Assembly: GCA_027491395.1 (NCBI GenBank)
Contig: JAOZFI010000039.1
Coordinates: 1 to 64,000, forward strand
From: Thermoproteota archaeon
Lineage (GTDB): Archaea > Korarchaeota > Korarchaeia > Korarchaeales > Korarchaeaceae
Length of the DNA: 64,000 bases
Direction of reading: 5' to 3'
Shown here: one piece after another, positions 7,175 to 40,294 of the stretch
How the letters are laid out: each line of letters starts with the position of its first letter
Position numbering within the stretch: the stretch's first letter is position 1
Notes under the pieces: generated by a model
What the model was told of the DNA's origin: nothing
The model's database searches: none
What the model saw: only the letters and a program-made list of their open reading frames with translations
Program-made: the position numbers and the translations under genes

Positions 7175-7586
7175 AACACTTGTGGTGGATAGCTACGCGT
7201 GGATCGAATACTTCCTCGGCTCAGACAAGGGGAAAAAGGTGCTAGAAGAGTTAAGGAGGGCAGAGGAAGTGATCACACCTTCCGTGGTCCTAGCCGAACT
7301 CGCACACAAGTACTTCAGGGAGGGTATGGACAGGGCTCAGGTTGAGGAGAGGATAAACTTAGTGAGATCGGTCTCCACAATCCGGGATCTAGATAACCAA
7401 GTCATCTTGGGGTTAAGAGAGGCGTACGGCGTGCTGCTGGATAATGCGAGGAGGCAGGGTATGAGACAAAAACCAGCTTTAAACGATGCAATAGTACTCT
7501 CAACCTCCTTGATCGTTGAAGGATCCGTCATAACGGGAGATAGACACTTCAAAGGGCTGAATAGGGTTATTTGGGTAGGAGATTAG
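7161..7586 (+). CDS. vapC: VapC PIN-domain ribonuclease toxin
   Basis: VVDSYAWIEY, VLAE, LNDAIV and TGDRHF acidic PIN residues. Confidence 0.9.
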   Translation: MLGSRTLVVDSYAWIEYFLGSDKGKKVLEELRRAEEVITPSVVLAELAHKYFREGMDRAQVEERINLVRSVSTIRDLDNQVILGLREAYGVLLDNARRQGMRQKPALNDAIVLSTSLIVEGSVITGDRHFKGLNRVIWVGD

Positions 7587-7680
7587 CTCCCTTAGGGTAC
7601 TCGCGGCTTATAAATCGAGATGAGTGTCTACATACCATACCAGAATTAATTTAGATCCACTATAAGAACCTGATCTTCAA

Positions 7681-9024
7681 ATGAGGGTCTTCGGGACATC
7701 GGGATTCAGGGGATACGTTAACGGGAAGCTTAATCCTCTGAATGTAATTAAGCTGGCTTTATCCTTCTCTTCATTCCTTTCAGGTGGCAGGATAGCGGTT
7801 GGAAGGGATGCTAGGCTGGGCAACAAGATAATCCATCCGACCTTCGTGTCCGGTCTCCTCGCGGGCGGTAGCGACGTGATCGACTTCGGTCTCACATCGA
7901 CCCCGGCCCTACTCCACGGGATGAAGGGGAGGAGCGAAGGGGCCGCCATGATAACGGGTTCTCACACTCCTCCGGACATACACGGGATCCTCCTCTTCAG
8001 GGGGGATACGGCGGAGATCTTCGGAGATGAAGAGAGGGAGATAGAGGAGATATTCGAGGGTGAGAGGTTTCAATTTGTCGGGTTGGAGGACTTGAGTGAA
8101 GTTGAGAGGGGAGATGCCCTCCCCAGCTACAGGGAGGACGTGAGAAGTGAGTTCCCTACCCTGAAGGGCAGGATAATTTTGGACTCAGGCCACTCACCCG
8201 CGGTCAGGGACTTCCTACATGTGCTGGATGGTTTGGAAATGAGGGTCCTGAACGGAGAGATAAGGGGGGACTTCCCCAACAGACCGCCTGAACCGGATCA
8301 GAAATCACTGGGACTACTTGGAAGGATCGTCAGGGAGGAGAGTGCGATATTCGGACTGTCGCTAGATGGAGATGGAGATAGGGCCATATTCGTCGACGAG
8401 AGGGGAGAGGTGGTCCCTCCCGATAGGTTGGGCATCCTGTTCGCCTTGGAGGAGGCGAGGAGCAGGGGCATAAGGAAGGTAGCATGCCCTGTCAACACAA
8501 CGGGAGCAGTGGAGATTCTGAGGGAGTACGGGATCGAGATTACCTACACTAAAGTGGGCCCGCCGGCTATGGCCTCGGCCATACTGAGGAAGGGAGCGGG
8601 TTTCGCGTTCGAGGAGTCGGGGAAGTATATCTGGCCGGGGAACATCCTTTATGGAGATCCCGTCTATGCCACCGCCAAGCTGTTACGGATATTGGATGGA
8701 AGGTCTCTCTCGGAATCGCTCTCATGGATACCCAAGAGGTACACTAGGAAGGGCGCGATTCCCTGCCCTGATCACCTTAAGGGAAGGCTACTCTCCGAGG
8801 TTGAGGCATTGGTCGAACCTCTTGGAGATATGATCAAGATAGATGGCGTGAAGGTGGTCTTGGACGATGGAAGCTGGATGCTCCTCAGGCCCTCTGGAAC
8901 TGAACCTGTATTCAGATATCATGTGGACGCGCCCACTAAGGGGAGGACTCTAGAGCTTGAGAGAAAGGCCCTGTCGATGATCAGGAGTGCAGGGAAAACT
9001 GCAGGACTTGAGAACCTTAATTAA
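7681..9024 (+). CDS. Phosphohexomutase (phosphomannomutase/phosphoglucomutase family)
   Basis: FGTSGFRG, TGSHTP, DGDGDR, FEESG and RPSGTEP motifs. Confidence 0.93.
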   Translation: MRVFGTSGFRGYVNGKLNPLNVIKLALSFSSFLSGGRIAVGRDARLGNKIIHPTFVSGLLAGGSDVIDFGLTSTPALLHGMKGRSEGAAMITGSHTPPDIHGILLFRGDTAEIFGDEEREIEEIFEGERFQFVGLEDLSEVERGDALPSYREDVRSEFPTLKGRIILDSGHSPAVRDFLHVLDGLEMRVLNGEIRGDFPNRPPEPDQKSLGLLGRIVREESAIFGLSLDGDGDRAIFVDERGEVVPPDRLGILFALEEARSRGIRKVACPVNTTGAVEILREYGIEITYTKVGPPAMASAILRKGAGFAFEESGKYIWPGNILYGDPVYATAKLLRILDGRSLSESLSWIPKRYTRKGAIPCPDHLKGRLLSEVEALVEPLGDMIKIDGVKVVLDDGSWMLLRPSGTEPVFRYHVDAPTKGRTLELERKALSMIRSAGKTAGLENLN

Positions 9025-10863: not shown

Positions 10864-11079
10864 ATTCCCGAGAAGGTCTGGACATTCATCTCTATCTCCA
10901 CTGGCAGGGTGGATCGGTTTGCAAACTGATCACCATCGACCGTCCTAGAACTCATTCGTTCCGAAAAATCCGAAGCTCGATTCAACGTAGCGCTTCTTTT
11001 AATTTTACCTATATAAATCCCAGACAAGCTTATATTAATCAGATCGGAGTGTTCCTTCGCCCCAAAAGGGGGTGTCACA

Positions 11080-11235
11080 ATGAGCGGAAAGGACTGGGGT
11101 ATAGCGATAGTTCTACTTATTGTAGGCCTACTGATAGGCTATTTCGCAGTTGGACCGGGCAAGACGATCACCACCACCGTCACACAGACATCTGTCAAAA
11201 CCGTGACGGTCACGCAAACAGCGGGCGCCCCTCCA
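11080..11235 (+). repeat. Conserved N-terminal anchor module, copy 1 (copy 2 at 20169-20324; related copy at the livK 5' end)
   Basis: 46/52 identical residues between copies 1 and 2 by manual alignment. Confidence 0.85.
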
Positions 11236-12747
11236 CCCAAGACCACGACAACCCAGACCACGCCGCCCAAGAAATACGCTGACACCATAGTGATAGGAGT
11301 GACCGATAAGGTTTCCGACCTAGATCCGGCCAATGCATATGACTTCTATACTTGGGAGGTGTTCAACAACATAGGGGAGGGTCCGTTCAAGTACAAGCCA
11401 GGAACCACTGAGCTGATTAAGGGAATAATAGAGGACTACGAGGTCCAGGAAGGAGGTAAGGTCTACATACTGAAGCTCAGGAAGAATCTGAAATTCGCAG
11501 ACGGGACTCCCTGCACCGCCAAGGACCTGAAGTGGTCTATAGATAGGGTGGCTAGGATAGAGGGAGACCCCGCGTGGTTCGTTCTCGACTTCGTCAACAA
11601 GACAGAAGTAATCGACGACTATACTCTAAAGATAGTGCTGAACCAGCCCGTGGCCTTCTATCCAGCGGTGCTGGCCGTCCCCACCTACTTCCCCATACCA
11701 CCGGACAAGTATCCTGCCGATGAGATTTCTTCCGACAACACCGCTGGCAGCGTCGGTCCCTACAAGATAACCAAGTGGGTCAGGGATCAGGTCCTTATAC
11801 TGGAGGCCAACCCCTATTACTACGGAGAGAAGCCCAAGACTCCCAAGGTTATAGTCAAGTTCTACAAGGACGCCACCACCCTCAGGCTGGCGCTGGAGAG
11901 CGGTGAGATAGACATAGCTTGGAGGACCCTAAACCCCACTGATATAAAGGACCTCATGAAGAAGCCCGGCATCCAGGTGATAGAGGGTAAGGGCTCCTTC
12001 ATAAGGTACATCGTGTTCAACACGAAGATAAAGCCCTTCGACAACAAGAAGGTCAGACAGGCCCTTGCCGCCGCCCTCGACAGGAAGGCCATAGCCGAGA
12101 GGGTCTTCTTGGGCACAGTGGATCCTCTCTACAGCCTCGTTCCCATGGGCATGTGGAGCCACATAGATGCTTTCAAGGAGAAGTACGGGGAGGCCAACAT
12201 AGAGCTGGCCAAGAAGCTTCTCAAGGAGGCTGGCTACTCCGAGTCCAACAAGCTCAAGGTTGAGCTGTGGTACACGCCTTCCCACTACGGCGATACTGAG
12301 GCCGATGTCGCTGCTCTGATAAAGGAGGCCTGGGAGAAGACCGGAATGGTCGAGGTGACCGTGAAGAGCGCCGAGTGGAGCACCTATCTGGAGCTCACTA
12401 GGAAGGGCCAGCTACCTGTGACCCTCTACGGCTGGTATCCCGACTACATAGATCCCGACAACTACCTGTTCCCGTTCCTCCACACCGGATCCAACAGGTG
12501 GCTCGGTGAGCCGTACAGCAACCCCGATCTTGACAAGATACTGGAGAAGGCCCAAGTATCCCTAGACCAGAAGGAGAGGGAGCAGCTGTACAAGCAGGCC
12601 CAGCAGATATTGGCTGAGGATGCTCCTATAGTGCCCATATTCCAGGGCAAACTGTATGTGGCCGCCAAGAATAACGTGCACGGTATAGTGCTCGACCCGA
12701 TAATGCTTCTCAGGTACTACCTGATCTACAAGGAAGCTGGTAGCTGA
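11080..12747 (+). CDS. Peptide ABC transporter substrate-binding protein (family 5, DppA/OppA-like)
   Basis: TM anchor plus Thr-rich linker, LDPA, KFADGTP, GPYKI, GWYPDYIDPDNY. Confidence 0.93.
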   Translation: MSGKDWGIAIVLLIVGLLIGYFAVGPGKTITTTVTQTSVKTVTVTQTAGAPPPKTTTTQTTPPKKYADTIVIGVTDKVSDLDPANAYDFYTWEVFNNIGEGPFKYKPGTTELIKGIIEDYEVQEGGKVYILKLRKNLKFADGTPCTAKDLKWSIDRVARIEGDPAWFVLDFVNKTEVIDDYTLKIVLNQPVAFYPAVLAVPTYFPIPPDKYPADEISSDNTAGSVGPYKITKWVRDQVLILEANPYYYGEKPKTPKVIVKFYKDATTLRLALESGEIDIAWRTLNPTDIKDLMKKPGIQVIEGKGSFIRYIVFNTKIKPFDNKKVRQALAAALDRKAIAERVFLGTVDPLYSLVPMGMWSHIDAFKEKYGEANIELAKKLLKEAGYSESNKLKVELWYTPSHYGDTEADVAALIKEAWEKTGMVEVTVKSAEWSTYLELTRKGQLPVTLYGWYPDYIDPDNYLFPFLHTGSNRWLGEPYSNPDLDKILEKAQVSLDQKEREQLYKQAQQILAEDAPIVPIFQGKLYVAAKNNVHGIVLDPIMLLRYYLIYKEAGS

Positions 12748-12791: not shown

Positions 12792-13802
12792 ATGTCACTA
12801 AGGGCCTACGTGATAACTAGAATTCTTATGACGATCCCCATGATCCTCATTCTGCTGACGTTGGTCTTCCTCGTAATGAGAGTCCTCCCAGGAAATCCTG
12901 TGATAGCCATAGTCGGGATGAAGGCCTCTCCAGAGTACATAAAGAAGCTGGAGCATCAGCTGGGTCTCGATAAGCCCCTTTGGCAGCAGTACCTCGACTA
13001 TTTGGGGAACCTGCTGAGAGGAGACTTGGGAAGGTCTATGATATGGGGGAAGAGGCCCGTCATCCAAGAGATAATGGACCACTTCCCCGCAACTCTTGAG
13101 CTGACGATAGGCGGCTTCTTGGTCAGCGTCCTATTGGGCTTAGCCACAGGAATGCTTGCGGGGATAAGATCAGGTGGAAAAGTAGATGCATCCATGAGGA
13201 TCTACAGCATCGTCGTGTATTCCCTCTTCATACCCCTGCTGGGAATGATGCTTCAGCTCGTGTTCGGGGTCTGGCTCCACATGCTACCAGTAGGTGGGAG
13301 GATAGATCCGGGTATGGAACCTCCATCGATAACGGGTCTGTATGTCTTGGACTCGATCATAAGCCTGAAGATGAATAGCCTGCTCAACTCGTTGGCTCAC
13401 TTGGCGCTGCCCTCACTCACCTTAGGGCTGGTCCTCTCAGGCATATACACTAGGTTGGTGAGATCCAGCCTGATGGAGGTGCTGGGTCAGGATTTCATAA
13501 GGGCTTGCAAGGCTAGAGGCCTCCCAGGAAGGGCCATCCTGTTCAAGCACGCGCTGAAGAACGCGCTCATCCCAATTCTCACCATGATGGGTCTTCAATT
13601 TGCTCTCTTGCTGGCCGGCGCCGTTCTCACCGAGACCACGTTTTCATGGCCGGGAATGGGCACCTTCCTAGTCGAGAGGATAACGTATAGGGACTTCACA
13701 ACCATACAGGGGGCAATAGTATTCTACGCCCTCTTCGTGGCCTTGGTCAGCCTGATCGTTGATCTGGTGTACGCATACGTCGATCCTAGGATAAGGTACT
13801 GA
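12792..13802 (+). CDS. dppB: Peptide ABC permease (DppB/OppB)
   Basis: GLDKPLWQQY, GDLGRS, FPATLEL, KARGL, KHALKNA, ETTFSWPGMG, DPRIRY. Confidence 0.92.
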   Translation: MSLRAYVITRILMTIPMILILLTLVFLVMRVLPGNPVIAIVGMKASPEYIKKLEHQLGLDKPLWQQYLDYLGNLLRGDLGRSMIWGKRPVIQEIMDHFPATLELTIGGFLVSVLLGLATGMLAGIRSGGKVDASMRIYSIVVYSLFIPLLGMMLQLVFGVWLHMLPVGGRIDPGMEPPSITGLYVLDSIISLKMNSLLNSLAHLALPSLTLGLVLSGIYTRLVRSSLMEVLGQDFIRACKARGLPGRAILFKHALKNALIPILTMMGLQFALLLAGAVLTETTFSWPGMGTFLVERITYRDFTTIQGAIVFYALFVALVSLIVDLVYAYVDPRIRY

Positions 13803-13808
13803 GGTGAT

Positions 13809-14669
13809 TTGATGAGAACGTTCAACCTCTCTCGCTTCCTCAGCTCGGTGAGGGATGCCGGGCTGGACGGTTACATGATGGTGGTCGGTCTGATTATAGT
13901 GCTGGCCGTTTTAGTGATGGCCGTGTTCGCCGAGTTCATAGCGCCCTACGATCCTGTCAAGACCGTGGGCATGCCCGTAACCCCTCCGTCCCCCGAATTC
14001 CCTTGGGGCACCGATACCATAGGAAGGGACGTATTTAGCCGCGTCGTCTACGGTTCTAGGACCATAATGGTGGTGATACTCATGTCCACCGCCCTGTCTA
14101 TGGCGGTGGGCATACCTCTGGGCCTCATCTCAGGATATGTCGGAGGCCCACTCGACAGGGTATTCTCCCTAGTGATGGACAGCATATACGCCTTCCCTGG
14201 GCTCATACTCGCCATTGCGGTGGCTGCAATGCTCGGACCCGGCATATACAACACGTCCATATCACTGGCCGTGGTATACATCCCCACTTACTTCAGGATG
14301 GTGAGGGGGCAGGTCCTCTCGCTGAGGGAGCAGCTCTTCGTGGAGGCAGCTAGGGCCTTGGGTGCGACTGACTGGAGGATACTCCGCAAATACATATTCC
14401 CCAACGTGTTCTTCATCATAGCGGTGGTGTTCTCCCTGAACGTGGCTGATGCCATCCTGACCGAGGCGGGTCTGAGCTTCCTAGGACTTAGCGTCCCGGC
14501 CCCAACGCCTGACTGGGGATTCGACCTGAAGAACGGCCAGAGGTACTTCCTATCGGGCAAGTGGTGGCCCGTCGTGTTCCCAGGAACTATGATAATACTG
14601 CTGGCCTTGGGCTTCGGTCTCCTCGGTGAGGGACTCAACAGGATGCTTGGGCAGAAGGAGGTGAGATGA
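13809..14669 (+). CDS. dppC: Peptide ABC permease (DppC/OppC)
   Basis: GTDTIGRDVFSRVVYG, EAARALGA, EAGLSFLGL. Confidence 0.92.
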   Translation: MMRTFNLSRFLSSVRDAGLDGYMMVVGLIIVLAVLVMAVFAEFIAPYDPVKTVGMPVTPPSPEFPWGTDTIGRDVFSRVVYGSRTIMVVILMSTALSMAVGIPLGLISGYVGGPLDRVFSLVMDSIYAFPGLILAIAVAAMLGPGIYNTSISLAVVYIPTYFRMVRGQVLSLREQLFVEAARALGATDWRILRKYIFPNVFFIIAVVFSLNVADAILTEAGLSFLGLSVPAPTPDWGFDLKNGQRYFLSGKWWPVVFPGTMIILLALGFGLLGEGLNRMLGQKEVR

Positions 14670-15620
14670 GTGCTCTTGGAGATAGAGGACCTCCATGTCT
14701 ACTACTTCACCAAGAGGGGCGTGGTCCGGGCGGTCGAGGGGGTCTCCTTCGAACTCGACAGGGCCGAGATACTGGGGATAGTGGGTGAGTCGGGAAGCGG
14801 GAAGAGCACGCTCGGACTGGCGATAATGAACCTAGTCCCCTCCCCAGGGAAGATAGTTAGAGGGAGCATCAGGCTGGACGGGAAGGACCTGACCAAGATG
14901 AGCGAGAAGGAGCTAAGGGATATCAGGGGCAAGGAGATAGCTATGGTCTTTCAGGATCCAATGACCTCCTTGGACCCCCTTATGAGGATAGGCGATCAAA
15001 TAGTGGAGACTATCTTGGCCCACGAGGATGTGAGCAAGGAGGAAGCCAAGAGGAGAGCCCTTGAACTACTGGAGGAGGTGGGGATCTCCAGGGATAGGTT
15101 CAACGACTATCCCCATCAGCTCAGTGGAGGGATGAGGCAGAGGGTGATGATAGCAATGGCCATCTCCCTGAACCCCAAGCTGATAATAGCTGATGAGCCC
15201 ACTACGGCCCTCGACGTCATAGTGCAGGATCAGATAATGGAGTTATTCTCCAAGTTGAGGGACGAGTTCGGCGTGGCGGTAATCCTAATATCCCACGATC
15301 TAGCTCTAGAGTTGGAGGTATCTGACAAGATAGGGGTGATGTACGCCGGGTGGCTCATGGAGCTCTCGAAGTCGGAGGAGCTAGCTAAGAAACCCCTGAA
15401 CCCATACGCTAGGGAGCTGCTAAAGGCAATACCGAATGTGGAACTTGAGGAGCAGGAGCTCGTGTCCATCCCTGGGTCCCCACCAGATCTCCACGATCCT
15501 CCAAAGGGATGTCGGTTCCACCCTAGGTGCCCTGATGCGATGCCTATCTGCTTCAAGGAGGAACCACCCACCAAATCGATTGACGGGAGGCTCGTGAAGT
15601 GCTGGCTGTACGGAGGGTGA
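14670..15620 (+). CDS. dppD: Peptide ABC ATP-binding protein (DppD)
   Basis: [38 protein letters not shown]. Confidence 0.93.
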   Translation: MLLEIEDLHVYYFTKRGVVRAVEGVSFELDRAEILGIVGESGSGKSTLGLAIMNLVPSPGKIVRGSIRLDGKDLTKMSEKELRDIRGKEIAMVFQDPMTSLDPLMRIGDQIVETILAHEDVSKEEAKRRALELLEEVGISRDRFNDYPHQLSGGMRQRVMIAMAISLNPKLIIADEPTTALDVIVQDQIMELFSKLRDEFGVAVILISHDLALELEVSDKIGVMYAGWLMELSKSEELAKKPLNPYARELLKAIPNVELEEQELVSIPGSPPDLHDPPKGCRFHPRCPDAMPICFKEEPPTKSIDGRLVKCWLYGG

Positions 15621-15624
15621 TCGC

Positions 15625-16602
15625 ATGCTGCTAAAGGTGGAGAATCTGAAGAAGTATTTCCCGGTCGCTAAGACCTTCATAGAGCGGCTCCTCACGAGGG
15701 AAGAGAGGTACGTCAGGGCGGTGGACGGGATAAGCTTTCACATAGAGGAGGGAGAGGTCTTCTCACTAGTCGGGGAGTCGGGAAGCGGGAAGACCACCAC
15801 CGGCAAAGTGGTGCTGAGGTTGATAGAGCCCACCTCCGGGAGGGTCATCTTCCAGGGGAGAGACATAACCTCCTTGGGCAAGAAGGAGCTCCGACTGATG
15901 AGGAGGCACATGCAGATAATATATCAGGACCCATACGCGTCCCTCAACCCTAGGATGAGGGTCGGAGAGGCCATAATGGATCCCCTGCTCATCCACAAGA
16001 TAGCTGAGGGGAGAGAGGCCAAGGAAATGGTGCTGGAGATGCTCGAGAAGGTGGGACTCACGCCCCCGGAGACGTTCTTTAACTCCTATCCAGCCTACCT
16101 CAGCGGGGGACAGAGGCAGCGTGTCGCCATAGCTAGGGCCATGATCACCAGACCCAAACTGGTGGTTGCTGATGAGCCAGTCAGCATGATCGACGTCTCA
16201 CTGAGGGCTTCTATCTTGGATCTGATGATGGATCTCAGGAAGGAATTCGGCGTCGCCTACCTCTTCATAACCCACGATTTGGCCGTAGCCAAGTACATCT
16301 CTGACAGGATAGCCATAATGTACCTTGGCAAGATAGTCGAGCTAGGAAGGACGAAGGTCCTATTCAAGAACCCCCTGCACCCCTACACCAAGGCTCTGCT
16401 GAGCGCCATACCCGTCCCTACCCCGGGCAAGAGGAAAGAGAGGCTGAGACTGAAGGGTGAGATCCCTTCAGCTATAGACATCCCTCCTGGATGCAGATTC
16501 CACCCGAGATGTCCCATGAGCTTCGAACCGTGCAATAAGGAGGAACCCGAGCTCATGGAGGTGGAGCCGGGTCACTTCGTGGCCTGTCACCTGCACACGT
16601 AG
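15625..16602 (+). CDS. dppF: Peptide ABC ATP-binding protein (DppF)
   Basis: [36 protein letters not shown]. Confidence 0.93.
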   Translation: MLLKVENLKKYFPVAKTFIERLLTREERYVRAVDGISFHIEEGEVFSLVGESGSGKTTTGKVVLRLIEPTSGRVIFQGRDITSLGKKELRLMRRHMQIIYQDPYASLNPRMRVGEAIMDPLLIHKIAEGREAKEMVLEMLEKVGLTPPETFFNSYPAYLSGGQRQRVAIARAMITRPKLVVADEPVSMIDVSLRASILDLMMDLRKEFGVAYLFITHDLAVAKYISDRIAIMYLGKIVELGRTKVLFKNPLHPYTKALLSAIPVPTPGKRKERLRLKGEIPSAIDIPPGCRFHPRCPMSFEPCNKEEPELMEVEPGHFVACHLHT

Positions 16603-17722: not shown

Positions 17723-18610
17723 TCAGTGTTCGCCCTCCCTTCTACCCTCCTTGGAGAGCCAGTCCTTCACGATCTCCATCAGCTCCATGGGTATCAGGAA
17801 CTTTGTGGCCTCGGAGGAACCTATCACCTTCAGCCCATCCAAGTACTGAAGCTTCATGGTCTTCTCATCCAACGCCTTCGCGACCTCGTCTATGGTCTTG
17901 AGGGCCAAGGCGTAGCCCTCAGCCTTGAGTATCTGGGCCTGCCTCTCACCCTCGGCCTTCAGTATGGCCGCCTGCTTCTCGCCCTCAGCTACCTTTATTG
18001 CCGCCTCCTTCTTTCCCTCAGCCTCTGTTACCATGGCCCTCCTGTTACGTTCAGCAGCCATCTGCTTTATCATAGCCTCCTGAACCGTTTTAGGAGGTAA
18101 TATCTCCCTGATCTCTACGTTTGTTATCTTGACGCCCCATCGCTCGGTCACCTCATCGAGCTTAACTCTCAGGATGTTGTTTATCTCATCTCTCTTTGCT
18201 AGGACCTCATCAAGCATCATTTCTCCTATGACCGCTCTCAGTGTGGTGGTAGCTATTCCTATTGCCGCCCCCTTGAAGTCCGACACGTTGAGGACGCTCG
18301 CCATGGGATCCACCACCTTGTAGTAGACGATGAAGTCTATATCGGTGGGGGCGTTGTCCTTCGTTATGCAGGTCTGATGCGGCACATCGAAGTAGCTCTC
18401 CCTCAGGTCTATCCATATTATTTGGTCAATTATAGGAACCCTGAATACTATACCGGGCCCTTTCACCCCTAGAAACCTGCCCAGCCTCAGAATTACAAGC
18501 CTCTTGAACTCAGGCACTATTTTAATTGCCGAAGCTAGGAACAGGATCAGGATAAAGACGACAACAGCTATAAGGAACTCTGACAGACCCAAAACTACAG
18601 CTTGGGTCAT
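17723..18610 (-). CDS. SPFH/stomatin (band 7) protein
   Basis: N-terminal TM, RLGRF..GPG, ITKDN, TTTLRAVIG, WGVKITNVEI, AEGEKQAAIL repeats. Confidence 0.93.
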   Translation of the reverse strand: MTQAVVLGLSEFLIAVVVFILILFLASAIKIVPEFKRLVILRLGRFLGVKGPGIVFRVPIIDQIIWIDLRESYFDVPHQTCITKDNAPTDIDFIVYYKVVDPMASVLNVSDFKGAAIGIATTTLRAVIGEMMLDEVLAKRDEINNILRVKLDEVTERWGVKITNVEIREILPPKTVQEAMIKQMAAERNRRAMVTEAEGKKEAAIKVAEGEKQAAILKAEGERQAQILKAEGYALALKTIDEVAKALDEKTMKLQYLDGLKVIGSSEATKFLIPMELMEIVKDWLSKEGRREGEH

Positions 18611-19818
18611 TCTCTCACCACCTTGACCTTAAAACCTTCAATATCAACTATCCTCACCCTCTCCCCCTCCTCTATGCTCTCATTTGAAACGGCAGTCCAG
18701 AGCTCAGAGCCAACGAGCACCACTCCATCTCTATCCGGCCTTATAGCGACCTTAACTACTCCTGTTTTACCTATTACGTTTTCTGGACTAAGGGGACTTG
18801 TTCTTTTAGACAGGATCTCCCTTATCTTGTACAGATAGAACCCAACAAGTCCGGAGAAAACAACTAGAGATACAATCACGGCTTCGACACTTAAGGTGGG
18901 TGCTATCAGTGGTCCAGATTCGTACACAAGCAGCAGGCCAATAGCGGAGATCACAGCGCCTGTCAGGGCTAGGAAACCGTGACCGGTCTTCAACTCGAGG
19001 AATATGGTCGTCGCTCCCATCACCATGAGTATTACAGCCGCTAGACTCGCCCCGATGAGGCCGAACGCGTAGAGGCCCAGCACTATCATTATGGTCCCAC
19101 TGGCCTCCATCACGAAGGTCGGGTGCGTCAGTCCAAGCAGCACGAGTATTATGCCTAGAATGAATATAACCCATGCATTCAGCGGATCCGTTATGACGAG
19201 GAGGAGGGATACCCTCACATCAGGGTAATATTCCTCTGTTTCTCTGGGCCAGCCCATCCTTTCCAGCGCTTCTAGAGAATTCTTCGCCGTGCAGTCCGCT
19301 ATTCCATACTTCGAGGCCTCCTCAGCGGTTAGAGCTAGATTCTCCCTAACGAACAGTTCCGCAGCCGTTGAGTTCTTACCTGAAACCTCAGCTAAGCTCT
19401 TCATCCAGCTGGAGAGGGCGTTCACCACTTTCTCATCTCTCGGTCTAGGCTCGGCCGCCCCTATGGAAGATCCGGGTCCCATGCATATCTTATCCGCAGA
19501 CAGTGCTATGAAGGCTCCAGCCGAGAATGCCTTTCCACCTGATGGGATGTAGACGGCCACCCTCACCGGTGAAGAGCTGATTGTCCCTACTATCCGCTCA
19601 GTCGACTGGAGGAACCCTCCATCAGTGTTGAGGACTATGAGCACATCCATGTCACTGCTCTCAGCAAGCTTCACTCCGGACGCGATGTACTCCGCCACAC
19701 CCTCTGTGATGGTACCTTCTACCCTCAGCAGGAGGGTTCTACCACCACTGGAGGCCTGCAGAAGAGGGGGAAGCAGGAGTGAGAGCATCAGTAATACAGT
19801 AAGCGTTGACCTTCTCAT
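18607..19818 (-). CDS. nfeD: NfeD long form (ClpP-like serine protease, TM region and OB fold)
   Basis: LNTDGG, AFSAGAFI, SIGAAEP, EKVVN, C-terminal GKTGVV...GELWTA; paired with stomatin; start trimmed to ATG 19818. Confidence 0.9.
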   Translation of the reverse strand: MRRSTLTVLLMLSLLLPPLLQASSGGRTLLLRVEGTITEGVAEYIASGVKLAESSDMDVLIVLNTDGGFLQSTERIVGTISSSPVRVAVYIPSGGKAFSAGAFIALSADKICMGPGSSIGAAEPRPRDEKVVNALSSWMKSLAEVSGKNSTAAELFVRENLALTAEEASKYGIADCTAKNSLEALERMGWPRETEEYYPDVRVSLLLVITDPLNAWVIFILGIILVLLGLTHPTFVMEASGTIMIVLGLYAFGLIGASLAAVILMVMGATTIFLELKTGHGFLALTGAVISAIGLLLVYESGPLIAPTLSVEAVIVSLVVFSGLVGFYLYKIREILSKRTSPLSPENVIGKTGVVKVAIRPDRDGVVLVGSELWTAVSNESIEEGERVRIVDIEGFKVKVVRE

Positions 19819-20168
19819 GGCTCCACTCATAAGCAGTAAGTATAGAAATTTAACCGTTGTTTTTTGGAGGACTCCCGATACCCCGGATTCTCCTTGAAGG
19901 GACGGAGAGTGTGGATGACACTTAGACACCTAGTTGCGCTAATTCTATGTTACTATGTCGAAAATCTGTCCTATTGATGGAGGATCGCCGAGAGATGATG
20001 GGAAGATGAATCTCTCTGAGGCGTACGACCCCTCTCCCGAACCGGAAAAATCTTTTTGTTGGAAAAGGGAAAAATACATGATCTATCCAAGCTTGTGCTC
20101 CCCTATCTGAGGTCAAGATTTATATTTGTCAGATTTTGGGGCCTATCTAACCATAGTGGGTGTTCTAG

Positions 20169-21872
20169 ATGAGTGGGAAAGATTGGATAGTCGTGATAGT
20201 CCTCCTGATCGTGGGGCTCCTTATAGGGTATTTTGCCGCGGGCCCTGGTAAGACAACCACTGTCACCGTGACACAGACCTCTGTCAAGACCGTGACCGTG
20301 ACCCAGACTGCTGGCGCCCCTCCAGCTCCCACCACGACTAAGACGACCACTACCCAACCCAAGGCCCAGATGAAGACCCCCGCTGATACCCTGATAATAG
20401 CTATGGATACCAGCGATGCGGTCTCTATGGATCCGGCTAGGGCTTATGAGTTCACCTCATGCTTCGTTGTCAACCAGCTCTATGATAAGCTTGTGGATTT
20501 CGAGCTTCCTGATCTGGTCAATGTTAAGCCTGAGGTCGCTGAGAAGTGGGAAGTCAGCGAAGATGGCAAGGTTTGGACCTTCCATATAAGGAAGGGTATT
20601 AAGTTCGCTAGCGGTAATCCCCTCACCGCCGATGATGTCGTTTACTCCCTCCAGAGGGTAATTAAGCTTAAGCAGACCGCTTCTTGGGTTCTTACCCAGT
20701 TCGTCTCCACTCCCGAGCAGATAGAGAAGATCGATGACTACACCGTCAAGATAACCTTAGATAAGCCAGTAGCTCCGAGCTTCTTCCTCGCTACCCTGAC
20801 GTTCACGACTTCCGCAGTCGTAGATAAGCAGGTGGTCGAGGCCCATGCGAAGAACGGGGACATGGGAAGCGATTGGATGACCGATCACAGCGCCGGTAGC
20901 GGTCCGTTCGTCCTAGAGAAGTGGGATAGGGAAGCCGAAATAGTCCTTAAGGCCAATCCATACTACTGGAAGCCAGGTCAGCCAGCTGTGAAGAAGGTGA
21001 TCATAAAGCATGTTCCCGAGCCCACGGATCAGCTCCTCCTGATAAAGAAGGGGGATGTTGACATAGCAACTGACTTGACTGCGGAGCAGGTCAAACAGGT
21101 TGAGGGTACACCCGGAATAAACGTGATAAAGGTGGAGAGGACCCACATAGTCTACTTGGGAATGAACGTTGCCGTGAAGCCGTTGGACAAGGAAGAGGTT
21201 AGGGATGCAATCAGGTACTGTATAGATTATGACAGCATAATAAACGACATCCTGCTTGGAGCAGCGATAAAGTGGCAGACTGTCATTCCAAAGGGTCTGC
21301 TCGGAGCGAACCCGAAGACACCCTACAAGAAGGATGTGGCTAAGGCCAAGGAACTCTTAGCTAAGGCCGGTGTGCCCAATGGATTCACCATAGAGCTGAC
21401 CACGCCGCCGACCTATCCTCAGATAGACATAGCAACCAAGATACAGGCTGACCTGGCCGAGTGCGGCATCAAGGTGAAGATCGTGCAGATGACCCAGTCC
21501 GAGATGTACGAGAAGTACAGAAAGCAAGGTCTCCAGCTTGTGCTCGCAGGTTGGGGGTCCGACTATCCGGATCCGGACAACAACGCCAAGGCTTTCGGTG
21601 ACTACAGGGTGAAACAGCTCGCTTGGAGGAACTCTTGGTACGATGACCATGCCGCCGATCTCGCCGAGAAAGCGGCCGTGGAGTTCGACAACAATAAGAG
21701 GAAGCAGATGTACCTCGAGCTCACTGACTACATACTCGACCACGGACCCTACGCGATCCTCTACCAGACCCTCGCCCAGCACGTAGCGAGGGACTACGTG
21801 AAGAATTATCTGCCCGATCCGACGTTCTTCCTTGAGGACCTCTCCAAGGTGTCAAAGGCCGGAGGGAGCTGA
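20169..21872 (+). CDS. Peptide ABC transporter substrate-binding protein (family 5), second copy
   Basis: MDPARAYE, KFASGNPLTADDVVYS, GSGPF, GWGSDYPDPD. Confidence 0.93.
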   Translation: MSGKDWIVVIVLLIVGLLIGYFAAGPGKTTTVTVTQTSVKTVTVTQTAGAPPAPTTTKTTTTQPKAQMKTPADTLIIAMDTSDAVSMDPARAYEFTSCFVVNQLYDKLVDFELPDLVNVKPEVAEKWEVSEDGKVWTFHIRKGIKFASGNPLTADDVVYSLQRVIKLKQTASWVLTQFVSTPEQIEKIDDYTVKITLDKPVAPSFFLATLTFTTSAVVDKQVVEAHAKNGDMGSDWMTDHSAGSGPFVLEKWDREAEIVLKANPYYWKPGQPAVKKVIIKHVPEPTDQLLLIKKGDVDIATDLTAEQVKQVEGTPGINVIKVERTHIVYLGMNVAVKPLDKEEVRDAIRYCIDYDSIINDILLGAAIKWQTVIPKGLLGANPKTPYKKDVAKAKELLAKAGVPNGFTIELTTPPTYPQIDIATKIQADLAECGIKVKIVQMTQSEMYEKYRKQGLQLVLAGWGSDYPDPDNNAKAFGDYRVKQLAWRNSWYDDHAADLAEKAAVEFDNNKRKQMYLELTDYILDHGPYAILYQTLAQHVARDYVKNYLPDPTFFLEDLSKVSKAGGS

Positions 21873-38956: not shown

Positions 38957-40294
38957 TCAGGGCTGCTCGTAGAAGGTCGTGGCCTTAGTAGTTCCATCAT
39001 ATTTGCCGATGGTCTTGAAGGTCCACTGACCGTCCACTATCCTTGGGGCCACGATGTCGTAGATAGGTACGGCAGCATCGCCGTACTCATCGAGCAGCTT
39101 CCATCCGGTCACGCCGTAGAAGTGCTTGCTTATGTAAGGAACTAGCTTCTGGAACACCCTGCCATCGTACTTGTGAGCCACGAGCACGGTCAGGCCAGCT
39201 ACCCAGGCAGCATCATAAGCATAGAACGCGTAGGTGCTGGCCTCGGGGGACTCACCGAACCTCTTGGTGTACTTCTCTATGAACTCCTTCACTAATGGGT
39301 TTTCCTTGGATCCCACAGCAGGCGTGGTGGCCATGAAGTGCACGCTCTGCAGGAACTTGGCTATGTCCTCCTTGGCCTTGGGAGGCAGGAAGGTAGCCCT
39401 CTTCATGGAGTCAGGTCCGAACCACCTTACCTTGCTAAGCGTAGGGTCGAGCCTTGCAGCCTCGAGAATCTTTATACCGTCATCGTCGAAGGCTATTATG
39501 ACAACGCCGGTCTCAGCATCGGCTCCGAAGTCGGCCACAGCAGCGCTAGCCCTCTCCACATCGGCGGAGAGGTCGGGCTGAGTGTGGTCATATATTATCT
39601 TAACGACCTGACCTCCGAGCTTCTTGAAGTTCTCCTCTATCAGGTCGGCGAGACCCTTGCCGTAGTCATCGCTCCTAGCCATTATAACAAGCTTCTTTAT
39701 TCCCTGATCCCATATTATCTTGGCCAGAGCGGGACCTTGGTACTTGTCAGGGGACGGCATCCTGAAGCAGTAATCGTTCTTGACCATAGCAGCAGTTCCG
39801 GTGCTGCTCGGACTTATAGCGGTCATGTGGTGGGACTTGGCGTAGTCAAGTATGGCCTTACACTCGCTGGTAGCGAGCGGGCCAACGACCATCTGCACGC
39901 CAGCGGATGCGAGCTTCTCGTAGGCGGCAATAGCACCCTCAGCAGAGGTCTTGGTGTCCTCGTGGATGTATTTGAGTCTGACGGGAGAGCCAACCTCCTC
40001 TAGCATAGCGTTTATCTCCTCTATGGCTAGGATTGCCGCGTTTCTCCTCCTAGGACCGTCCACCGCGTAACCTCCAGTGACGGCGATGGCTAATCCGATT
40101 ACATACTCCTTCTGCTCAGGCGCTGCAGCAGTTCCCGTCACGGTGACTGTCTTGGTGACAGTCTGCGCACCGGCACCGCCCACGGTGACGGTAGTGGTGG
40201 ACACGCTCACCTTACCAGGGGCGGCCACATAGCCCAACAGGATTCCTATGATGAATAAGACAATAGAAACTACTCCCCACGCTTTCGAACTCAT
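38957..40294 (-). CDS. Branched-chain amino acid ABC substrate-binding protein (LivK-like, type I PBP)
   Basis: AIEEIN, EDTK, VVGPLATS, ISPSST, DDYGKG, YAYDA. Confidence 0.9.
   Translation of the reverse strand: MSSKAWGVVSIVLFIIGILLGYVAAPGKVSVSTTTVTVGGAGAQTVTKTVTVTGTAAAPEQKEYVIGLAIAVTGGYAVDGPRRRNAAILAIEEINAMLEEVGSPVRLKYIHEDTKTSAEGAIAAYEKLASAGVQMVVGPLATSECKAILDYAKSHHMTAISPSSTGTAAMVKNDYCFRMPSPDKYQGPALAKIIWDQGIKKLVIMARSDDYGKGLADLIEENFKKLGGQVVKIIYDHTQPDLSADVERASAAVADFGADAETGVVIIAFDDDGIKILEAARLDPTLSKVRWFGPDSMKRATFLPPKAKEDIAKFLQSVHFMATTPAVGSKENPLVKEFIEKYTKRFGESPEASTYAFYAYDAAWVAGLTVLVAHKYDGRVFQKLVPYISKHFYGVTGWKLLDEYGDAAVPIYDIVAPRIVDGQWTFKTIGKYDGTTKATTFYEQP

What the first reader, a model, noticed from the sequence alone, without database searches (positions are those of the whole stretch)
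11080..11235. N-terminal anchor module under strong purifying selection, shared by three solute-binding proteins of two folds
Seen: the first 52 aa of the SBPs at 11080 and 20169 are 46/52 identical (MSGKDW...IVLLIVGLLIGYFAxGPGKTxTxTVTQTSVKTVTVTQTAGAPP), while their binding domains are visibly far more divergent. By my count 29 of the 46 identical residues use different codons, so this is not a recent DNA copy. The LivK-type SBP starting at 40294, an unrelated fold, begins MSSKAW...IVLFIIGILLGYVAAPGK...TVTKTVTVT. Known: signal anchors and Thr linkers are normally the fastest-evolving parts of SBPs, and Sulfolobus uses class III signal peptides to route sugar SBPs to the bindosome. This motif has no lipobox Cys and no clear prepilin cleavage site. 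Inference: a lineage-specific sorting, glycosylation or assembly tag (MSxKxW-TM-GYxAxPGK-[TV]n), possibly an undescribed SBP display system; the alternating T-V run could form an intermolecular beta-stalk.
Basis: partly seen in the sequence, partly recalled or inferred. Interest (0 to 1): 0.72.

Follow-up and report, generated by a model that had tools for sequence, protein, structure and literature searches.

The report
Swappable membrane tether of binding proteins
Several nutrient-binding proteins of this archaeon start with the same short membrane-helix-plus-threonine segment; across related genomes it is less conserved than the binding domains and replaces other anchors, so it is most likely an ordinary membrane tether copied between genes, in a form of a known pilin-like anchor that lacks the usual removable leader.

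Summary
The counts are exact: 46/52 identical residues, 29 with different codons, bodies about 30% identical. The claim of exceptional selection fails. The module is less conserved than the binding domain in 56 of 63 orthologue pairs. Synonymous sites saturate at this protein distance in this genus, and a plain anchor is about as conserved. Orthologues with 82-92% identical bodies carry unrelated anchors, while the modules of three Opp-type paralogues form one clade: the segment was most likely grafted between genes. A profile finds it on 10 of 17 binding-protein genes here and on six Pfam families. Looser versions occur in other archaea behind class III or Tat-like leaders, and Met1 sits about where the class III cut would fall. 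Best reading: a leaderless class III-type signal anchor plus Thr spacer. Left open: this genus also encodes leaderless pilin-like proteins beside type IV filament motors, so pilus-machine display is not excluded.

The parts
11030..11037 (+). TATA-like box upstream of SBP A
   Evidence: sequence; kept in 5 of the 8 module-bearing A loci as written, an AT-rich box in two more, one locus cut short; function inferred
11068..11074 (+). ribosome-binding site GGGGGTG; fixes the start at 11080, so no leader is made
11080..11097 (+). short n-region (residues 1-6, one Lys); Met1 lies about in register with residue +1 of class III-type homologues
11098..11151 (+). hydrophobic helix (residues 7-24) with G16-x-x-x-G20-Y21; predicted membrane anchor
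   Evidence: helix 3-23 in the model; G16 and G20 invariant, Y21 and P26 nearly so in 44 modules
11152..11163 (+). Gly-Pro-Gly-Lys hinge after the helix (residues 25-28)
11164..11235 (+). alternating Thr-Val run and AGAPP (residues 29-52); end of the shared cassette
   Evidence: no secondary structure in the model, pLDDT 56-67
11236..11277 (+). Pro/Thr-rich tail, not shared in register between paralogues; likely crossover zone (inferred)
11278..12747 (+). SBP A body, Opp/Dpp type (PF00496)
12792..16602 (+). two permeases and two ATPases of the ABC importer served by SBP A
20169..20324 (+). module of SBP B (gene 20169-21872, PF00496); likely donor lineage for the copies on A and D (inferred)
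40121..40294 (-). module of LivK-type SBP C (gene 38957-40294, PF13458), a more distant variant with a Gly-rich insert inside the T-V run

Best explanation
The segment is a membrane helix followed by a threonine-rich run that sits on ten binding-protein genes of this genome and most likely works as an uncleaved membrane anchor plus spacer, derived from the pilin-like (class III) anchor by loss of the leader and likely spread by 5-prime exchange between genes. Inferred working: the single Lys and the helix insert the protein through Sec with the N-terminus inside; the Pro after the helix would block signal peptidase I (recalled rule); the Thr-rich run holds the binding domain away from the membrane so that it can reach its own ABC permease. 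Shown: the segment is exchangeable, it evolves faster than the bodies, and SBPs A and D carry the same version as B although their outgroup orthologues have unrelated anchors. The high A/B identity then reflects a copy old enough to scramble third codon positions but young in protein terms.
For: Module identity below body identity in 56 of 63 orthologue pairs against G000 (left out: rows with no N-terminus in the locus and two E rows cut or frameshifted). The A-versus-B module distance (pN 0.073, pS 0.73) equals the distance between A-module orthologues in G000 and G009 (45/52, pN 0.076, pS 0.74), whose bodies are 96% identical; A bodies reach pS 0.62-0.68 at pN 0.065. Replacement: D has the module in 4 genomes but unrelated anchors in 9 others (bodies 79-87%); B lacks it in G003 (body 92%) and G047; A lacks it in G021, G024, G027, G028. 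A, B and D modules of the G000-G004 subclade form one clade, 97/98 on protein and 100/99 on DNA. Control: a plain class III anchor family plus other non-module anchors is about as conserved (first 28 aa: 96% in 13 pairs against 94% in 66 pairs at body identity 95-100%). Class III link: 5 of 10 hits with a class III-like leader have the second Gly at +21 from the cut site, and 46 of 53 hits classed as leaderless have it at +20 to +22 from Met1. Known architecture: class III binding proteins of Sulfolobus have a Ser/Thr linker after the hydrophobic stretch (PMC2797410, passages); unprocessed signal peptides can serve as N-terminal anchors (PMC3387779, passage).
Against: Topology, lack of cleavage and spacer role were not tested. 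G16, G20 and alternate Thr stay fixed across 44 modules (rows chosen for having GY and at least 8 Thr, so partly circular), which a bare anchor does not need. In the 85-95% body bin module anchors were somewhat more conserved than controls (70% against 64%), though three control heads were cut inside the linker. Ongoing homogenisation is not shown: AU tests did not reject vertical descent for the deeper B and E split (p 0.27 and 0.30; B as one clade p 0.054), and only 1 of 11 paralogue pairs had excess shared codons (G008 A-B, P 0.013 uncorrected). The register count depends on a regular expression that miscalls some leaders and picks the Met by distance. Orthologue pairs share ancestry and are not independent.
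Confidence: 0.65

Rival explanations
1. The module is a ready-cut class III N-terminus, and a type IV filament machine that handles leaderless subunits places these binding proteins in the envelope: a bindosome-like display that needs no prepilin peptidase.
For: Met1 is about in register with the class III cut. A locus with a secretion ATPase (PF00437; best NCBIfam match BasE, 159 bits against a cut-off of 1000), an 8-helix membrane protein and several pilin-like genes was found in 11 genomes of the genus by at least one of its genes. These genes start right after a ribosome-binding site, often 0-8 codons after an in-frame stop, and one folds like archaeal type IV pilins (pLDDT 89; full-length matches to 8FK7, 8Q30, 6W8X, TM 0.32-0.37). 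Ten of those 11 genomes are the ones with the tight module; G014 (70% complete) showed only looser ones. G013 and G016 have another motor locus with leaderless pilin-like genes. Class III binding proteins are proposed to use such machines widely (PMC13705601, section 18).
Against: No direct link: the SBP genes lie in ABC operons (as in Sulfolobus too). The co-occurrence is one clade, one event. The pilin-like genes begin M-[QE]-x-[TS]-x-E and lack the GxxxGY motif. The same helix end and T-V run follow Tat-like leaders in other archaea, which argues against a class III-specific role. Plain anchors in this genome also start M-x-x-[KR], so leaderless may simply mean signal anchor. The 8-helix protein has no PF00482 match.
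Confidence: 0.17
2. The module is a recognition tag for a modifying enzyme, most plausibly O-glycosylation of the alternating threonines, and this is why the pattern is kept.
For: 29-43% Thr in the linkers of A-E; T33 and T35 invariant, T45 and T47 nearly so. Ser/Thr stretches of archaeal binding proteins are described as glycosylated or potentially so (PMC3387779, PMC2797410, passages).
Against: Thr-rich linkers of other sequence occur on non-module orthologues and on C-terminally anchored proteins. The linker is the least conserved part (51-64% at body 75-95%). No N-glycosylation sequon in any of the five heads, although an AglB/STT3 gene is present. No dedicated enzyme was looked for beyond that.
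Confidence: 0.09
3. The T-V run pairs between chains into a beta-stalk, and GxxxG packs the helices, so the module is an oligomerisation domain.
For: Period-two Thr/Val pattern; in four variants a Gly-rich insert splits the run as a hairpin turn would; GxxxG is a recalled helix-packing motif. Sulfolobus binding proteins form 400-600 kDa complexes even without BasEF (PMC3047682, passages).
Against: The single-chain model from 44 sequences has no strand in the run. Register and length of the run vary, and family-level relatives keep the helix but replace the run with Pro- or Cys/Pro-rich linkers.
Confidence: 0.05
4. The likeness is convergence of hydrophobic and Thr-rich low-complexity sequence, not common descent.
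For: Synonymous sites carry no signal; the weakest hits (below about 35 bits) include C-terminal anchors and non-SBPs by eye.
Against: 46/52, 44/52 and 42/52 identity among A, B and D without gaps; other anchors of the same genome reach at most 9 bits with the three-sequence profile.
Confidence: 0.04

Closest known systems
[quoted passage not shown] 5 in PMC13705601
   Same: N-terminal hydrophobic helix kept on the mature protein, Ser/Thr-rich linker, diverse binding domains behind a shared N-terminus, genes in ABC operons (PMC2797410, PMC13705601, passages). Homologues of the module carry class III-like leaders.
   Different: No leader is encoded on A-E, so there is nothing for PibD/FlaK to cut; a screen that demands the cleavage motif would miss them. 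Linker almost Ser-free and alternating T-V. Recent grafting onto Opp-type bodies is visible.
Bindosome (Bas system) of Saccharolobus solfataricus
   Same: One envelope route for many binding proteins; this genome has a secretion ATPase whose best NCBIfam match is BasE, pilin-like genes and a FlaK/PibD-like peptidase.
   Different: BasE cut-off not met (159 against 1000 bits); no PF00482 platform match in G000; pilin-like genes leaderless; no evidence that SBPs depend on it.
Uncleaved Sec signal anchors of archaeal surface proteins
   Same: Short positive n-region, one helix, no lipobox, no C-terminal anchor.
   Different: Carries a fixed GxxxGY..P motif and T-V run shared across six SBP families.
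C-terminally anchored crenarchaeal OppA (S. solfataricus, A. pernix) and lipoprotein SBPs (Thermococcus litoralis)
   Same: Same job of tethering; the A family itself occurs with lipobox, class III, leaderless and apparently soluble N-termini in other organisms.
   Different: No C-terminal helix and no Cys on A, B or C; one SBP of this genome (C22) does use the C-terminal type.

Membership tests
Class III signal peptide binding proteins | positively charged leader ending in [KR][GA] before the hydrophobic stretch | tested here: not met
   No leader on A, B, C (stop codon or no start upstream). Met by sequence for three other SBPs of this genome, C5, C7 and C54.
Class III signal peptide binding proteins | about 20-residue hydrophobic helix at the mature N-terminus | tested here: met
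   helix 3-23; register with class III-like homologues
Class III signal peptide binding proteins | Ser/Thr-rich linker between helix and binding domain | tested here: met
   29-43% Thr
Class III signal peptide binding proteins | prepilin peptidase in the genome | tested here: met
   PF01478 over cut-off at G000 C31; found in 5 of 5 relatives tested
Bindosome (Bas) | BasE ATPase, BasF platform, BasABC pilins | tested here: inconclusive
   ATPase matches BasE far below the cut-off; 8-helix neighbour has no PF00482 match; one pilin-like protein has a type IV pilin fold
Bindosome (Bas) | binding proteins need the machine for surface function | not testable with these tools
   needs deletion or heterologous expression
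Archaeal lipoprotein SBPs | lipobox Cys | tested here: not met
   no Cys in the heads
SPase I-cleaved, C-terminally anchored OppA | C-terminal Ser/Thr stretch plus membrane helix | tested here: not met
   one helix only, N-terminal
Dedicated sorting tag (PEP-CTERM/PGF-CTERM-like logic) | motif conserved more than the cargo and kept on orthologues | tested here: not met
Dedicated sorting tag (PEP-CTERM/PGF-CTERM-like logic) | co-occurring processing enzyme | tested here: inconclusive
   only the prepilin peptidase, secretion ATPases and AglB were searched; one filament locus tracks the tight module but as a single clade
Described Pfam/NCBIfam family for the module | match over a curated cut-off | tested here: not met
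   no Pfam match at E 1e-5 covering the N-terminus; NCBIfam matches all below cut-off; no PDB sequence match better than E 0.04

The most novel reading that the evidence does not exclude
This korarchaeal genus runs a leaderless class III system: pilins and most solute-binding proteins are translated already in their 'processed' form, a type IV filament motor installs the binding proteins in the envelope without a prepilin peptidase, and newly acquired transporters are recruited to it by grafting the 52-codon cassette onto their 5-prime ends.
Probability: 0.15. Interest if true: 0.72.

Novelty: new variant of a known kind. Interest (0 to 1): 0.33.

Why it matters
As most likely read, it is a clean, datable case of anchors being swapped between unrelated transporter genes in an archaeon, and a warning that saturated third positions do not prove unusual selection. 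It also shows that screens for pilin-like binding proteins that require the cleavage motif miss a leaderless class. If the bolder reading held, it would extend the bindosome idea, still unsettled, to a peptidase-independent form, with a natural test set: ten module-bearing and seven plain-anchor binding proteins in one cell.

Tried and rejected
Trimer prediction of the 56-residue module with its 44-row alignment: no answer (score 0.02, mark 0.42); it counts neither for nor against binding. ESM Atlas on residues 1-66 of a near-identical stored homologue: no usable hit. PDB sequence searches with the module and pilin profiles: nothing significant. Recent gene conversion: longest identical runs between paralogous modules 8-14 nt, except 20 nt in G008; not significant after 11 tests; rejected as a general explanation. 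Genus-wide concerted evolution of B and E modules: suggested by tree shape, not supported by AU tests. Shared promoter or 5-prime untranslated region: only generic TATA and ribosome-binding sites are shared. I first took G013 (one contig) as a module-bearing genome with no filament system; one search showed another motor locus with pilin-like genes there, so I dropped that argument. I first took G010 as lacking the locus; one search found a pilin-like gene at a contig end. The careful body tree finished only for A; B, D and E used FastTree. Paper searches for this module, for anchor exchange among archaeal binding proteins and for leaderless archaeal pilins gave no description; the library lacks most subscription papers, and I saw no figures or supplements (Fig. 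2 of PMC2797410, Fig. 5b and tables of PMC13705601 may bear on this).

Full report
Observation. The first 52 codons at 11080 (A) and 20169 (B) give 46 identical residues, 29 of them with different codons; the bodies match at 154 of 509 columns. A and B are PF00496 and the minus-strand gene ending at 40294 (C) is PF13458; A is followed by two permeases and two ATPases. Ribosome-binding sites and in-frame stops fix the starts, so no leader is made. Close homologues are named Candidatus Korarchaeota by their sources.

How far it spreads. A profile of 12 modules finds 11 places in this genome (9 of them were in the training set): ten SBPs and one small secreted-repeat protein. A census by local search with known SBP bodies found 17 SBP genes (18 frames, one gene split); seven have other anchors. 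In the protein collection 62 of 63 hits (7994 candidates scored) carry an SBP family: PF00496, PF13458/PF01094, PF02608, PF00497, PF13407/PF00532, PF03480. It matches 34 of 38 genomes of the order at E 0.001, strongly only within the genus, and 25 of 201 genomes drawn from the phylum of G052 at E 1e-5, best 41 bits (these hits were read by eye, not by Pfam, and some are not SBPs). Sources name members of three of ten weaker clusters as Thermoprotei, Desulfurococcales and Geothermarchaeota. So the tight form is local; the loose form is a wider thermophile pattern.

Selection. I collected orthologues of A, B, C, D (G000 C61, Opp type) and E (G000 C28:87403, LivK type). The module is less conserved than the body in 56 of 63 pairs against G000; the seven exceptions are all pairs with bodies at least 95% identical, and four of them are C. 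Synonymous saturation is normal here: A bodies that are 89% identical have pS 0.62-0.68, and the A modules of G000 and G009 differ just as A and B do (45/52, pN 0.076, pS 0.74 against 46/52, 0.073, 0.73). Non-module anchors are about as conserved over the first 28 residues (96% against 94% in the closest bin; 64% against 70% in the next, where three control heads were miscut). The module is under purifying selection, as a membrane helix should be, but not unusually.

Exchange. D carries the module in G000, G006, G008 and G012 and unrelated anchors in nine other genomes with bodies 79-87% identical. B lacks it in G003 at 92% body identity. A has class III-type anchors in G021, G024, G027 and G028 and lipobox anchors further out. 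The A, B and D modules of the G000-G004 subclade form one clade (97/98 protein, 100/99 DNA; 28 rows) although their bodies are distant. The simplest history, inferred, is that B's lineage had the module across the genus and that A, 9 kb away, and later D received it by 5-prime recombination ending in the Thr-codon-rich tail. Continuing conversion is not shown: AU tests p 0.054-0.30 and 1 of 11 pairs with excess shared codons. Gain and loss of signal peptides among orthologues is described for Enterobacterales (PMC5952966, search listing and start of abstract only).

What the module is. Among the 63 hits, ten have a class III-like leader before the same helix (two probably false calls); five place the second Gly at +21 from the cut, and 46 of 53 classed as leaderless place it at +20 to +22 from Met1 (seven with longer distances probably have leaders the pattern missed). 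Two SBPs of this genome (C5, C7) have leader and module together. In other archaea the same helix end and T-V run also follow Tat-like leaders. Class III binding proteins with a retained helix and Ser/Thr linker are known (PMC2797410, passages and section 20; PMC3387779, passages; PMC13705601, passages and section 18). The model has a helix at 3-23 and no structure beyond. I therefore read the module as a leaderless class III-type anchor with a spacer. Insertion by Sec, lack of cleavage and the spacer role are inferred; that Pro next to the cut site blocks signal peptidase I is recalled.

The open door. The genome has a prepilin peptidase and a secretion ATPase. In G002 the ATPase lies with an 8-helix protein and at least six pilin-like genes that have no leader; starts and nearby stops are kept across relatives, and one folds like archaeal type IV pilins (the top hit by E-value was an unrelated Ig-like domain, the pilin matches cover the full length at TM 0.32-0.37). 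At least one gene of this locus was found in 11 genomes, ten of which have the tight module; that is one clade and one event. So the lack of a prepilin site does not rule out filament-machine display in this genus. Nothing ties the SBPs to it directly, and the pilin-like N-termini differ from the module. PMC4858521 (passages) and PMC3047682 (passages) did not describe leaderless substrates in what I read.

Verdict. Real feature, ordinary function most likely (0.65), with an unusual leaderless form and visible grafting: a new variant of a known kind, interest 0.33. The bold reading, a peptidase-independent bindosome, has probability about 0.15.

Noticed in passing
L285:8553-19015 (G002:C9); in G000 split over C13, C42 and C56: Type IV filament-like locus whose pilin-like genes have no class III leader; start codons switch among ATG, TTG and GTG at the same position across relatives; one protein has the archaeal type IV pilin fold.
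   Followed up: partly
L285:3604-4949 and 7358-8014; G000 C42:8884-13290: An Arf-family GTPase (PF00025, E 4e-53) with a C-terminal extension, a weak roadblock/LC7 match and a second small GTPase lie next to that filament locus.
   Followed up: no
L299:3316-10895 (G013), L300 (G016), L231:2593-8047 (G000 C62): A second, divergent secretion ATPase with a TadC-like neighbour; in G013 and G016 it is followed by small leaderless pilin-like genes, which were not seen beside it in G000.
   Followed up: partly
G000 C54:2634-4137: A LivK-type SBP with a class III-type leader is split over two frames here, while relatives have one frame: frameshift or assembly error.
   Followed up: no
L142, L143, L145, L146, L149, L150: In other genera of the family an SBP keeps the module's helix but replaces the T-V run by a Cys/Pro-rich linker with repeated C-P-x-C, perhaps a disulfide-stiffened spacer.
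   Followed up: no
L016-L020 (G018, G013, G016, G015, G001): These genus members have only a 56-58% identical version of SBP A with a short plain anchor, grouping with a distant genome in the tree: possible replacement by transfer.
   Followed up: partly
G000 C38:3532-4052 (L117:1523-2053): The one non-SBP with a module-like head carries Lipoprotein_15 repeats (PF03640).
   Followed up: no
window 17723-19929 (-): NfeD-stomatin (Band 7) pair lying between the two Opp-type operons.
   Followed up: no
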